Shown here one piece after another: positions 37,221 through 39,490 of a stretch of 45,797 nucleotides of DNA. A model generated the notes under the pieces. That model ran no database searches. It was not told the origin of the DNA and saw only the letters and a list, made by a program, of their open reading frames with translations. The DNA lies in assembly GCA_964344235.1 (NCBI GenBank), contig CAYFMJ010000005.1, positions 1-45,797 of the forward strand. Reading direction: 5' to 3'. This DNA comes from an uncultured Methanosarcinales archaeon (lineage in GTDB: Archaea; Nanobdellota; Nanobdellia; Woesearchaeales; GW2011-AR9). The translations under genes were made by a program, and so were the position numbers. How positions within the stretch are numbered: the first letter of the stretch is position 1; each line of letters starts with the position of its first letter.

Positions 37221-37910
37221 TTAAATGCTCACACTCTTCTTTTTCTCACTCAACACAAAAGTCTTAACTTCTCCACCACAGAATGCTTGAATTAGCCCCT
37301 TTGCTTCTCGTAACAATTCATTCCGTTTTTTTGCTGTGATTGGGGGTAAAATATCAAAATGAATCAACACTTTATATGATTCCGCCACGAGGTTTGTTCT
37401 TCTATTATGCCATGCATCTAACTTCGTTCCTAAAACTCCTTTATCATCATGATAATACAACTCTCCGGCCGCTAACCGCTTCAATACACCACGCTTCTCC
37501 TTCCCCGTTGCAACATCAAATGTAACATCGCCGACAATCTCAACACAATCATCCACGCCAAACGGGACGATGTTCTTCAAAGACAAATGCCGCAGCAACG
37601 TTGTCAGCACATCTTTCATAGCAACATTTCGCTTTCGCAATACTTTTTGCAATAACTTCTCTACAGACGTATGATAATGCCTCGCTTTCCCACCAAAATC
37701 TTCTTGCGCCACAGCCCACGGTTCTAATAAGTTATGATTTCTCACAGTTTCTCTATTAAATGTCAACCGCACTAATGTTTCTGCTTCTTTCAACAAATGC
37801 TGCGCTTTCTCCAGATTTGTTTTATTATCAATCCCTTCAATCAATAAACAAGCAATCTGTAATTTAGAATGAAATTTTGTAAATACAGATTTTTTGATGG
37901 TAATATTCAT
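37221..37910 (-). CDS. Stand-alone B3/B4 (PheRS beta-like) domain protein
   Basis: LLEPWAVAQEDFG, TSVEKLLQKV, PFGVDD...GDVTF pattern. Confidence 0.75.
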   Translation of the reverse strand: MNITIKKSVFTKFHSKLQIACLLIEGIDNKTNLEKAQHLLKEAETLVRLTFNRETVRNHNLLEPWAVAQEDFGGKARHYHTSVEKLLQKVLRKRNVAMKDVLTTLLRHLSLKNIVPFGVDDCVEIVGDVTFDVATGKEKRGVLKRLAAGELYYHDDKGVLGTKLDAWHNRRTNLVAESYKVLIHFDILPPITAKKRNELLREAKGLIQAFCGGEVKTFVLSEKKKSVSI

Positions 37911-38209
37911 TTTTTCCGATAATGCTTCCGTACCTTTCGATCATCTAATGTTTCACGTAACGCCACATATAATCGAGTAAAGAATCCTTTCTTATGGCGC
38001 GAGTATGGAATGCCTCTGTCCCTATTTGCTTGATCTAAATTGTAACGAATCTCTTCTAATAATCGTACCTTTTTCCGTTCATAATGAATCCTCACAAACA
38101 ATAAGAGAAAATATAATCCAAAGACTCCTCCAACAGCTATTCCTAACTGCGTAATAAACGGGCGTATTGCTTCCGCAAGAGCCATTAAATCAGCAACAAC
38201 ATCCACCAT
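37907..38209 (-). CDS. Small single-TM protein
   Basis: One hydrophobic helix with a basic tail; coupled to the B3/B4 gene. Confidence 0.65.
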   Translation of the reverse strand: MVDVVADLMALAEAIRPFITQLGIAVGGVFGLYFLLLFVRIHYERKKVRLLEEIRYNLDQANRDRGIPYSRHKKGFFTRLYVALRETLDDRKVRKHYRKK

Positions 38210-38312
38210 CGTACAGAAACTAATGAAGCGTCGTTTTTATAGGTTTCTATGAAGCCACTACCCACTAGACAACCACAAGTAGCAAATATAAATCTTCTAA
38301 ACCCATTTCTAA

Positions 38313-38350
38313 TCACTCATTGTCTCGTTTTTGTGAAGACAATGAGGTGA
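38313..38350 (+). promoter_or_regulatory. RBS-sequestering hairpin upstream of the LAGLIDADG gene
   Basis: TCACTCATTGTCT (38313-38325) pairs with AGACAATGAGGTGA (38337-38350), which contains the GAGGTGA SD. Confidence 0.65.
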
Positions 38351-38356
38351 TATAAA

Positions 38357-39010
38357 ATGAATAAGAAAACAATAAAATTCCCTGAGAGAAGTGAGCAGCT
38401 AGCAGAACTTGTAGGTATCATCCTTGGCGATGGTAATATACAGTATACTGCAGGTTATCAATTGAGAATCGTTGGAGACTCGACGAAAGACCGAGATTAC
38501 TTAATCAATTATGTTAAACCACTTATAGATTCCCTATTCAATGTGGAGGCAAGGATATACAAACATAAAACGTTCAAAGAACTATTTGTAAATGTTGCAA
38601 ACAAAAGGATTGTTGAATTTCTCCTGTCTATTGGCATGGTACATGGAGATAAGATAAAGAACAATGCCTCAATTCCCTCTTGGGTTCTCAACAATGATAC
38701 ATATCTGAAAGCTTGCATTAGAGGCCTGGTTGACACAGATGGTTCAATTTATGAGCTCAAACCGCACTGGCCAGGTCTATGGCAAATTTGTTTTACAAAC
38801 AAAAATGAGGCATTATTATCCGGATTTAAAGAGGGCCTTCAGAAAGTGGGTATCAACTGTTCAAATATTTATCGTTACAAGAACGGTAAGAAAACACCAA
38901 AAATCTATATTACTAAGAAGTCGGAACTAAGTAAATTTTATAAAGAAATAGGCTTCAGCAACTCTAAACACCAAAACAAATTAAAGCCCCATGGTGTAGA
39001 CAAGCAATAA
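38357..39010 (+). CDS. Free-standing two-motif LAGLIDADG (DOD/intein-type) homing endonuclease
   Basis: LAELVGIILGDGNI and CIRGLVDTDGSI; ends FYKEIGFSNSKHQNKL. The last codons overlap the tRNA. Confidence 0.9.
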   Translation: MNKKTIKFPERSEQLAELVGIILGDGNIQYTAGYQLRIVGDSTKDRDYLINYVKPLIDSLFNVEARIYKHKTFKELFVNVANKRIVEFLLSIGMVHGDKIKNNASIPSWVLNNDTYLKACIRGLVDTDGSIYELKPHWPGLWQICFTNKNEALLSGFKEGLQKVGINCSNIYRYKNGKKTPKIYITKKSELSKFYKEIGFSNSKHQNKLKPHGVDKQ

Positions 39011-39100
39011 GCTTGGCACAATGGACTATCATTCGACCCTTTGGTACCACATCATTGGTGAAGTGAGGTCGCGACCGCGGTTCGAATCCGCGTGGGGCTA
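38985..39100 (+). tRNA. tRNA-Gln(UUG) with two introns (D-loop 15/16 at 39000-39021; canonical 37/38 at 39045-39065)
   Basis: Acceptor stem AGCCCCA/TGGGGCT plus A; anticodon stem CGACC/GGTCG with TTG at 39041-39043; T-arm CGCGG-TTCGAAT-CCGCG; BHB motif at 37/38. Confidence 0.9.
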
Positions 39101-39307
39101 CTTTCTTTATCAGAAAAACAACTAAAATAATGCAAGAACTAATCATCACCCTCAAGTCTTACGTGAAATACATAAGCAAATTGACTAAGTTGATTAGAAT
39201 GTTTAGATGAAATTAACAAATTTTTTACCTTTTATGCCTCTTTTTAGAACTCTAAACCAAAGATAATTTAAACTACAAGATAATGGCTTAACCCGGAGGT
39301 AAGATCT

Positions 39308-39490
39308 ATGAAAAAAATCATGACTATAGCACTCATTGTGTTGGCAATTGGATTATTAGTTATGGGATGTACTACTATAACTGATTCTAGCGACACAACA
39401 CAACCGGCTCCTACTGAAAATGCAGAGGAGACTACACAACCAGAAGCAGAGGGTAGTGATTTAGAACCACCTGCTTTACCAGAGGGATAA
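39308..39490 (+). CDS. Small secreted or lipoprotein-like acidic peptide (60 aa)
   Basis: Signal peptide ending VMGC; GGAGGT SD; C-terminal EPPALPEG. Confidence 0.7.
   Translation: MKKIMTIALIVLAIGLLVMGCTTITDSSDTTQPAPTENAEETTQPEAEGSDLEPPALPEG

What the first reader, a model, noticed from the sequence alone, without database searches (positions are those of the whole stretch)
38284..39100. Homing endonuclease ORF reads into tRNA-Gln and borrows its stop codon from the tRNA's D-loop intron
Seen: the LAGLIDADG domain ends (QNKL) exactly where the tRNA begins (38985). The frame continues through the acceptor and D stems (KPHGV) and stops at TAA 39008-39010, in the loop of the intron hairpin CAAGC-AATAA-GCTTG. 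Both catalytic acidic residues are present. The only evident TATA-like box is upstream of the endonuclease (about 38284-38293), so the ORF would be the tRNA's 5' leader. Inference: RNase P cleavage or splicing destroys the stop codon, so endonuclease translation and tRNA maturation compete for one transcript. This would be a selfish element hiding in a pre-tRNA leader rather than in an intron or intein, with the intron possibly required by it or protecting the target site.
Basis: partly seen in the sequence, partly recalled or inferred. Interest (0 to 1): 0.82.

Follow-up and report, generated by a model that had tools for sequence, protein, structure and literature searches.

The report
Homing endonuclease gene fused onto tRNA-Gln
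An intact "selfish" DNA-cutting enzyme gene in a tiny DPANN archaeon runs straight into the start of the only glutamine tRNA gene and ends on a stop codon inside a small tRNA intron; this is one case of a widespread, apparently undescribed way in which such genes lodge in tRNA genes.

Summary
ORF 38357-39010 is an intact two-motif LAGLIDADG endonuclease. It reads 26 nt into a two-intron tRNA-Gln(UUG) gene (38985-39100) and stops at TAA 39008-39010, in the hairpin loop of a 22-nt bulge-helix-bulge intron at tRNA position 15/16.

This is a family trait. In at least 83 of 86 DPANN homologue loci the gene lies flush against the 5' end of a tRNA-Gln or tRNA-Glu gene on the same strand. In 59 of the 69 loci analysed in detail, the stop codon lies inside the tRNA. 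It is usually the exon UAG at positions 13-15 or 8-10, and all three reading frames occur.

Eight syntenic relatives have the same locus without the endonuclease gene. In 14-17 other loci a truncated, intron-less copy of tRNA positions 1 to about 25, with its own promoter, lies upstream of the endonuclease gene. I infer that the cassette enters the tRNA gene and carries a replacement 5' part, usually with a D-loop intron.

The "5' leader" reading is weakened. An exact copy of the lineage's tRNA promoter box (TTTTATAAA) lies inside the ORF, and intron and endonuclease gene each occur without the other. The idea that the intron protects the target remains open.

This scan had already noted tRNA-abutting LAGLIDADG genes on other contigs of this genome.

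The parts
38262..38271 (+). CCACTAGACA, start of the upstream promoter element CCACTnGACAACCACnnGTAG shared by the LAGLIDADG paralogues of this genome
   Evidence: 26 genome hits against about 6 expected. Nine or ten lie in front of LAGLIDADG genes.
38284..38293 (+). TATA-like box AAATATAAAT, the probable promoter of the endonuclease gene
   Evidence: Sequence. It has the same spacing after the CCACT element as in the paralogues.
38312..38351 (+). 5'-UTR hairpin that pairs the Shine-Dalgarno-like GAGGUGAU (38344-38351)
   Evidence: -16.3 kcal/mol, z = -3.8 against shuffles.
38357..39010 (+). Free-standing two-motif LAGLIDADG homing endonuclease ORF (217 aa). The last 8 codons and the stop are tRNA/intron sequence.
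   Evidence: AF2 model pLDDT 90.6 with residues 212-217 below 50. Foldseek top hits are the TliVMA intein endonuclease, I-Tsp061I and I-DmoI.
38936..38944 (+). TTTTATAAA inside the ORF (codons K-F-Y-K of KFYKEIGF): candidate promoter of the tRNA itself, at -49..-41
   Evidence: Identical to the consensus tRNA-Gln promoter of endonuclease-less relatives. This genome's tRNA promoters normally start at -31..-36. The motif shows an excess of A/T-ending codons.
38985..38999 (+). tRNA-Gln(UUG) exon 1, positions 1-15
39000..39021 (+). 22-nt BHB intron at 15/16. Helix GUGU/GCAC, bulges AG|A and AA|U, hairpin CAAGC-AAUAA-GCUUG. Holds the ORF's stop codon TAA 39008-39010.
   Evidence: The homologous 22-nt intron in L015 has two compensatory pair changes in the hairpin.
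39022..39044 (+). tRNA exon 2 (positions 16-37; anticodon TTG at 39041-39043)
39045..39065 (+). 21-nt canonical BHB intron at 37/38 (helix CUUU/GAAG, bulges GG|U and UG|A, hairpin ACCA/UGGU)
39066..39100 (+). tRNA exon 3 (positions 38-73), followed by the T-rich stretch 39102-39110

Best explanation
The ORF is a mobile, free-standing LAGLIDADG homing endonuclease gene. It belongs to a DPANN-wide clade that specialises in tRNA-Gln and tRNA-Glu genes.

Shown:
- The cassette (promoter, hairpin, ORF; about 38260-38984) fills a spacer that is empty in eight syntenic relatives.
- In nearly all homologues the ORF abuts tRNA position +1 on the same strand. It ends at the first in-frame stop inside the tRNA. 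Here that stop is in the 15/16 intron.
- In other loci of the clade, a truncated, intron-less copy of tRNA positions 1 to about 25, with a normal tRNA promoter, lies about 60 nt upstream of the endonuclease start codon.

Inferred:
- The enzyme cuts an intron-less tRNA gene near positions 22-26.
- Repair copies in the cassette together with a replacement tRNA 5' part joined to the 3' end of the ORF. The tRNA gene is thus rebuilt and supplies both homology arms.
- The ORF-into-tRNA overlap and the borrowed stop are by-products of that fusion.
- Because the cassette cuts the tRNA off from its old promoter, a TATA box in the last codons of the ORF drives the tRNA.
- The D-arm intron in the rebuilt copy may split the target and protect it.
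- Transcripts that start at the endonuclease promoter would lose their stop codon when RNase P cuts. That would only lower endonuclease expression.
For: Intact enzyme.

Flush junction: 69 of 86 loci by scan; nearly all the rest by eye.

tRNA identity among the 69: Gln 51, Glu 14. Stop position: UAG at 13-15 in 29, UAG at 8-10 in 17, a 5'-half intron in 8, an own stop before +1 in 10. All three frames are used. L015 has the same synteny and the same 15/16 intron but another frame, and differs by 5 nt at the junction.

Empty syntenic sites: the up2-up1-tRNA-Gln arrangement without the endonuclease gene in G007, G010, G011, G014, G015, G018, G021 and G022.

Filled syntenic sites (L013, L014, L015, L084): endonuclease identity 58-70% against 34-50% for the two flanking genes.

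Relics: 14 loci match at 15/20 or better, above nearly all shuffled controls. Most start 55-64 nt before the start codon; four are 20/20 identical. All stop at tRNA position 24-25, and 8 of 11 have a TATA box at -32..-37.

D-loop intron after GGYCAA is present in the functional copy but not in the relic, in L016, L022, L050, L077, L036, L055 and L047. At least 16 loci share the intron design AUUYY..RGAAG.

Promoter.

The tRNA is the only tRNA-Gln gene found in the assembly.
Against: The window itself has no relic: best match 11/20, below the shuffled control.

About 21 endonuclease-linked tRNAs have no intron at all, so an intron cannot be the general means of immunity. The window's intron is at 15/16, about 9 nt from the inferred insertion point, and may not disrupt a target.

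The embedded TATA box lies at -49. That is 13-16 nt further upstream than in about 20 other tRNA genes of this genome.

The TATA-like DNA coincides with a conserved protein motif that is also present in paralogues facing tRNAs in antisense, so it may be partly a by-product of coding.

Loci are phylogenetically related, so counts and p-values overstate the support.
Confidence: 0.6

Rival explanations
1. First reader's model. The endonuclease ORF is the obligatory 5' leader of the pre-tRNA. One transcript from the promoter at 38284 serves both genes, and RNase P cleavage or splicing, which remove the stop codon, compete with endonuclease translation.
For: There is no stop and no evident terminator between the ORF and the tRNA. 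The stop lies beyond the RNase P site and inside an intron. No TATA box sits at the canonical -31..-36 position of this genome's tRNA genes. The borrowed stop is conserved in the clade.
Against: A perfect copy of the lineage's tRNA promoter box lies at -49..-41 inside the ORF. The other sense-flush pairs in this genome carry canonical-distance TATA boxes inside the ORF. The tRNA is the only tRNA-Gln found and must be abundant, yet the endonuclease message has a masked ribosome-binding site. Paralogues abut tRNAs in antisense, where no leader arrangement is possible. The reading frames differ among relatives.
Confidence: 0.2
2. The endonuclease gene once lay inside a large BHB intron of the tRNA D loop, as in archaeal rRNA introns. 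The present small D-arm intron and the upstream tRNA fragment are what remains after rearrangement.
For: Small D-loop introns sit next to the inferred insertion point in most linked tRNAs. Archaeal intron-encoded enzymes (I-Tsp061I, I-DmoI) are among the closest folds.
Against: A complete tRNA 5' part lies downstream of the ORF, so the ORF is not between exons. Relics run through position 21/22 to 24-25 and lack the intron's pairing sequence. No locus with the ORF inside an intron was seen among 86.
Confidence: 0.1
3. The protein is a domesticated LAGLIDADG protein kept next to the tRNA gene for the host's benefit, for example a WhiA-like DNA-binding regulator of the tRNA gene or a helper of pre-tRNA processing.
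For: The linkage to tRNA-Gln/Glu is conserved across DPANN. There is a weak Pfam match to the WhiA LAGLIDADG domain (E=4e-4), and WhiA is among the Foldseek hits (rank 40).
Against: Both catalytic aspartates are invariant. The gene is absent from eight syntenic relatives and found in only 21 of 41 relatives. There are many divergent paralogues per genome. Relic copies are marks of insertion.
Confidence: 0.07

Closest known systems
Fungal mitochondrial mobile ORF elements that carry a piece of the host gene (Allomyces macrogynus atp6; Glomus atp6, atp9, cox2, nad3; PMC3630166)
   Same: A free-standing endonuclease gene inserts into a host gene and brings a replacement copy of the displaced gene end. 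The gene stays whole, and the native end is left as a diverging relic.
   Different: The host is a tRNA gene and the arrangement is a mirror image: the 5' part is replaced and the relic lies upstream. The ORF reads into RNA-gene sequence rather than being fused in frame to a protein. The carried part often holds a BHB intron. The hosts are archaea. The window itself has lost the relic.
Phage T4 SegB and other Seg/Mob free-standing homing endonucleases ('intronless homing'; PMC2790892, PMC2988022, PMC13096335, seen)
   Same: An endonuclease gene outside any intron or intein, beside tRNA genes, presumably spreading by cutting endonuclease-less alleles and co-converting flanks.
   Different: SegB belongs to the GIY-YIG family and sits in a phage tRNA cluster. 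It does not overlap a tRNA and there is no duplicated tRNA segment. Here the enzyme is LAGLIDADG, the gene is chromosomal and archaeal, and it lies exactly at tRNA +1.
Collaborative homing (F-CphI and the psbA group I intron of cyanophage S-PM2; PMC6083498)
   Same: A free-standing endonuclease next to a gene whose ORF-less intron could interrupt the enzyme's target and so protect the carrier allele.
   Different: The intron here is a protein-spliced BHB micro-intron in a tRNA. Protection is untested, and many linked tRNAs have no intron.
Archaeal intron- and intein-encoded LAGLIDADG enzymes (I-DmoI, I-Tsp061I, PI-PfuI, TliVMA intein)
   Same: Monomeric two-domain fold, TM 0.6-0.7, and the same Pfam family.
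   Different: Not inside an intron or intein. No group I intron was detected.

Membership tests
LAGLIDADG homing endonucleases (Pfam PF14528) | Two LAGLIDADG motifs, each ending in a catalytic acidic residue | tested here: met
   LGDG (D25) and DTDG (D128), invariant in 19 homologues. Pfam E=1.1e-16.
LAGLIDADG homing endonucleases (Pfam PF14528) | Two alpha-beta-beta-alpha-beta-beta-alpha half-domains in one chain | tested here: met
   AF2 pLDDT 90.6, pTM 0.88. Foldseek hits to I-Tsp061I, I-DmoI and the TliVMA intein at E about 1e-11 to 1e-9.
LAGLIDADG homing endonucleases (Pfam PF14528) | Site-specific double-strand cleavage of an allele that lacks the gene | not testable with these tools
   Needs a biochemical assay.
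Free-standing homing endonuclease genes (intronless homing) | Lies outside introns and inteins, with a patchy presence at an otherwise conserved locus | tested here: met
   No Rfam intron match. Eight syntenic empty sites and four filled ones.
Mobile endonuclease ORF with a carried host-gene segment (Allomyces atp6 type) | A duplicated segment of the host gene on either side of the endonuclease gene, one copy being a truncated relic | tested here: inconclusive
   Met in 14-17 of 69 homologue loci. Not met in the window (best match 11/20, below control).
Archaeal bulge-helix-bulge tRNA introns | Two 3-nt bulges separated by a 4-bp helix, and removal restores a cloverleaf | tested here: met
   Both introns fit by hand. 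Removing them gives a clean tRNA-Gln. Fold. Compensatory changes against L015.
Archaeal bulge-helix-bulge tRNA introns | Cleavage by the splicing endonuclease EndA, followed by ligation | not testable with these tools
Collaborative homing (endonuclease plus protective intron) | The intron interrupts the endonuclease recognition site | not testable with these tools
   The target is unknown. Association only: D-arm introns in 44 of 69 linked tRNAs, and none in the relics.
Group I intron-encoded endonuclease | A group I ribozyme surrounds the ORF | tested here: not met
   No Intron_gpI match at E up to 10 in 38000-39400, nor at gathering score anywhere in the window.

The most novel reading that the evidence does not exclude
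These cassettes are a vehicle for tRNA-intron gain in archaea. The endonuclease cuts intron-less tRNA-Gln/Glu genes. Repair installs the endonuclease gene together with a replacement tRNA 5' part that already contains a BHB micro-intron, and that intron makes the rebuilt gene resistant. ORF-less D-arm introns would therefore spread by hitch-hiking, and would remain after the endonuclease gene decays. This would give a DNA-level mechanism for the unexplained spread of non-canonical archaeal tRNA introns.
Probability: 0.3. Interest if true: 0.88.

Novelty: new variant of a known kind. Interest (0 to 1): 0.72.

Why it matters
Archaeal tRNA micro-introns have no known means of spreading, and DPANN genomes are full of them.

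A homing endonuclease family that lodges in tRNA genes would link three things directly: selfish DNA, tRNA gene structure and intron gain. This family rebuilds the tRNA gene from a carried 5' part, places the tRNA promoter inside its own coding sequence, and is usually accompanied by a D-arm intron.

It also explains why tRNA finders miss many DPANN tRNAs. And it offers a set of natural enzymes with about 20-bp targets in conserved tRNA genes. The proposal can be tested with one cleavage assay and one transcript-mapping experiment.

Tried and rejected
- Default ARAGORN and Rfam (both thresholds) found no tRNA and no intron family in the region. The tRNA had to be rebuilt by hand.
- Group I intron: rejected.
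- Relic of the tRNA 5' part upstream of the window's endonuclease gene: not found.
- I considered that the CCACTnGACAACCAC element at 38262 might be a decayed relic. I rejected this because it also precedes about 13 unrelated genes.
- tRNA at C12:15795 as a second case: no endonuclease gene is nearby.
- Relaxed ARAGORN calls near the remaining paralogues were too noisy to use.
- Literature searches for tRNA-abutting LAGLIDADG genes in archaea or DPANN found nothing on this arrangement.
- Chance overlap: rejected by the recurrence in 86 loci.

Full report
**1. What is at the coordinates**

The window is a whole 45.8-kb contig (C5) of a 1.19-Mb, 39% G+C assembly that is 96% complete. Homologues of the protein come almost only from Woese-, Pace-, Nano-, Aenigm- and Micrarchaeota genomes, so the organism is a DPANN archaeon.

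The ORF 38357-39010 (+) encodes 217 aa.
- It matches Pfam LAGLIDADG_3 at E=1.1e-16.
- The acidic residues of both motifs (D25, D128) are invariant in 19 homologues.
- An AlphaFold model (pLDDT 90.6, pTM 0.88) shows two alpha-beta-beta-alpha-beta-beta-alpha halves. Only residues 212-217 fall below pLDDT 50. These are part of the tail encoded by tRNA and intron sequence.
- The nearest solved folds are the TliVMA intein endonuclease, I-Tsp061I and I-DmoI (sequence-level match).

**2. The tRNA**

Default ARAGORN and Rfam find nothing. Relaxed ARAGORN calls tRNA-Gln(ttg) at 38985-39101. I parsed two bulge-helix-bulge introns by hand:
- A 22-nt intron at position 15/16 (39000-39021). Helix GUGU/GCAC, bulges AG|A and AA|U, hairpin CAAGC-AAUAA-GCUUG.
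- A 21-nt canonical intron at 37/38 (39045-39065).

With both removed, default ARAGORN draws a regular cloverleaf tRNA-Gln(UUG). The centroid fold of the precursor has the expected helices.

The homologous 22-nt intron in L015 differs by two compensatory pair changes in the hairpin. This is the only tRNA-Gln gene I could find in the assembly.

**3. The overlap is a family trait**

A protein search gave 459 relatives. The C-termini of the close ones (53-77% identity) read ..NK[LI]-KPRGVVD, -QPRGVVD or -APSSSG... These are translations of the tRNA-Gln 5' end.

I fetched 80 loci from genome contigs, plus loci from relatives. The results:

| Measure | Result |
|---|---|
| Loci where a tRNA starts on the same strand within the last codons of the ORF (scan for T arm plus acceptor stem) | 69 of 86 |
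| The 17 loci the scan missed | almost all flush too; they have T-loop introns or unusual T loops |
| tRNA identity among the 69 | tRNA-Gln 51, tRNA-Glu 14 |
| Stop = UAG at tRNA positions 13-15 | 29 |
| Stop = UAG at positions 8-10 | 17 |
| Stop in a 5'-half intron | 8 |
| Stop elsewhere in the exons | 5 |
| Stop before +1 (the ORF's own) | 10 |

All three reading frames occur. L015 shares synteny and the same 15/16 intron with the window, yet ends ..KYSPVV* at UAG 13-15. The window lacks 5 nt at the junction, is therefore in the third frame, and runs on to the intron's TAA.

In the closest relatives with tails ..PRGV(V/A)D*, the stop is UA|A across the exon/intron junction of a 21/22 intron (L014). 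The tail peptide is therefore not selected, and the intron supplies the stop only in this frame.

**4. It is an insertion**

The two genes upstream of the endonuclease gene (37221-37910 and 37907-38209, both on the minus strand) are next to tRNA-Gln in eight relatives of the same family, with no endonuclease gene between them. Spacers there are about 145-350 nt, against 775 nt here.

Four other genomes (L013, L014, L015, L084) have the filled arrangement. Endonuclease identity to the window is 58-70%, while the two flanking genes are only 34-50% identical. This fits lateral spread into the same site, although strong constraint on the protein cannot be excluded. Only 21 of 41 relatives have any homologue.

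**5. How the cassette sits in the tRNA gene**

In 14 loci a second copy of the tRNA 5' part matches at 15/20 or better, above almost all shuffled controls. Three more loci are borderline.
- The copy usually starts 55-64 nt before the endonuclease start codon.
- Four copies are identical to the functional tRNA over 20/20 positions.
- The copies are uninterrupted and stop at tRNA position 24-25.
- They are followed at once by the endonuclease gene's TATA box.
- In 8 of 11 cases they are preceded by a normal tRNA promoter at -32..-37.

Where the copies are identical or nearly so, the functional tRNA downstream has a small intron right after GGYCAA (position 21/22) that the upstream copy lacks. 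At least 16 loci, in both Gln and Glu tRNAs, share the intron design AUUYY...RGAAG-GNCY.

I infer that the inserted DNA runs from the endonuclease promoter to tRNA position about 24. It carries a replacement tRNA 5' part, and the recipient's own 5' part is left behind as a relic. This explains why the ORF always abuts +1. It also gives the element homology arms inside the conserved tRNA gene.

The documented analogue is the fungal mitochondrial mobile ORF that carries a replacement gene C-terminus and leaves the native one as a relic (PMC3630166).

The window has no relic.

**6. Promoter**

Endonuclease-less tRNA-Gln genes of relatives have aaaaTTTTATAAA starting near -35. In this genome about 20 of 23 tRNA genes have a TATA box starting at -31..-36. 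The window's tRNA-Gln has none there, but it has the identical TTTTATAAA at -49..-41 (38936-38944), in the codons K-F-Y-K of the conserved KFYKEIGF motif.

Further points:
- The two other sense-flush endonuclease/tRNA pairs of this genome (C1:270527 and C6:12973) have TATA boxes at -35/-36 and -31 inside the endonuclease ORF.
- In the tRNA-Glu clade, the KHLK(R/K) codons give CATTTAAAAA at -31..-34.
- Two-fold codons of the motif end in A/T in 91% of cases, against 75% elsewhere in the same ORFs (odds ratio 3.3). The loci are not independent.

An embedded tRNA promoter is therefore likely but unproven, and its distance here is unusual.

The endonuclease gene has its own TATA-like box (38284-38293). 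Upstream of it lies the element CCACTnGACAACCAC, shared with its paralogues. A stable hairpin pairs its Shine-Dalgarno-like sequence.

**7. Introns and protection**

- D-arm introns occur in 44 of 69 linked tRNAs, mostly at 20-25. Seven, including the window's, are at 15/16.
- All five syntenic endonuclease-bearing loci have one. Among nine syntenic loci without a flush endonuclease gene, 3-4 have one, and none of those is at 21/22.
- About 21 linked tRNAs have no intron at all. G011 has a 15/16 intron without the endonuclease gene.

The intron is therefore neither necessary nor sufficient, but it is enriched. An intron at 21/22 sits next to the inferred insertion point and would split a roughly 20-bp target. 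The window's 15/16 intron would touch only the edge of such a target.

**8. Context in this genome**

Other LAGLIDADG paralogues also abut tRNA genes:
- Two read in antisense into tRNA 3' ends (C1:26122-26829 and C2:148091-148891).
- One reads in sense 20 nt into a tRNA at C1:270527.
- Others lie 13-150 nt from tRNAs.

Earlier notes of this scan had already described tRNA-abutting LAGLIDADG genes on other contigs and named T4 SegB as the closest known system. I re-checked the cases I cite.

**9. Verdict**

The "pre-tRNA leader" mechanism is at most a side effect, because the tRNA probably has its own promoter and the overlap arises from the way the cassette is fused to a carried tRNA 5' part.

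No paper in the searchable library describes this arrangement. I rate it a new variant of free-standing endonuclease homing.

No transcript or cleavage data could be obtained.

Noticed in passing
window 38251-38293; also G000 C1:26092, 63452, 65824, 269735, 277619; C2:148884; C6:11129, 12094: A promoter-upstream element CCACTnGACAACCACnnGTAG lies 4-6 nt before the TATA box. It occurs 26 times in the genome against about 6 expected. Nine or ten sites precede LAGLIDADG genes. Others precede integrase-like (C3:19752, C15:158), RadC-like (C13:4595) and helicase (C1:76313) genes. It may be a shared regulon or a mobile promoter module.
   Followed up: partly
window 38312-38351: A 14-15-bp hairpin in the endonuclease 5' UTR pairs the whole GAGGUGAU ribosome-binding-like sequence (-16.3 kcal/mol, z = -3.8). 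This suggests that translation of the endonuclease is held down.
   Followed up: partly
L099, L104, L105, L107 (relatives G014, G013, G012, G018), about 23 nt upstream of tRNA-Gln +1: A near copy of tRNA positions 1-13 (AGCCCYGCTGTGG) precedes the real 5' end. The TATA box is shifted to about -54, and these tRNAs also have a 20-22-nt intron near position 10. This could be another kind of 5' relic or an acceptor-stem intron.
   Followed up: no
L015, L024, L054 (tRNA-Gln T loops): Short insertions inside the T loop (for example GGTTCGAA-CGAAACT-CCGAG) look like introns at about 58/59. They are why a scan based on the T loop missed these tRNAs.
   Followed up: no
G000 whole genome: ARAGORN with introns allowed finds only 16 tRNA genes in a 96%-complete genome. 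Many tRNAs carry two or three micro-introns and escape standard finders and Rfam.
   Followed up: partly
G000 C2:162156-165482; C4:26136-26423; C1:172229-172408: LAGLIDADG_3 domains lie inside very long ORFs (a GyrB-like protein of 1108 aa, and ORFs of 1461 and 1185 aa). These are inteins with endonuclease domains, distinct from the free-standing tRNA-linked genes.
   Followed up: no
L027, L039, L065: In some genomes the endonuclease-linked tRNA-Gln is followed within about 65-105 nt by a tRNA beginning GCYSC, as tRNA-Glu genes do (anticodon not determined). Such a tandem could ease switching of the endonuclease clade between the two similar tRNA genes.
   Followed up: no
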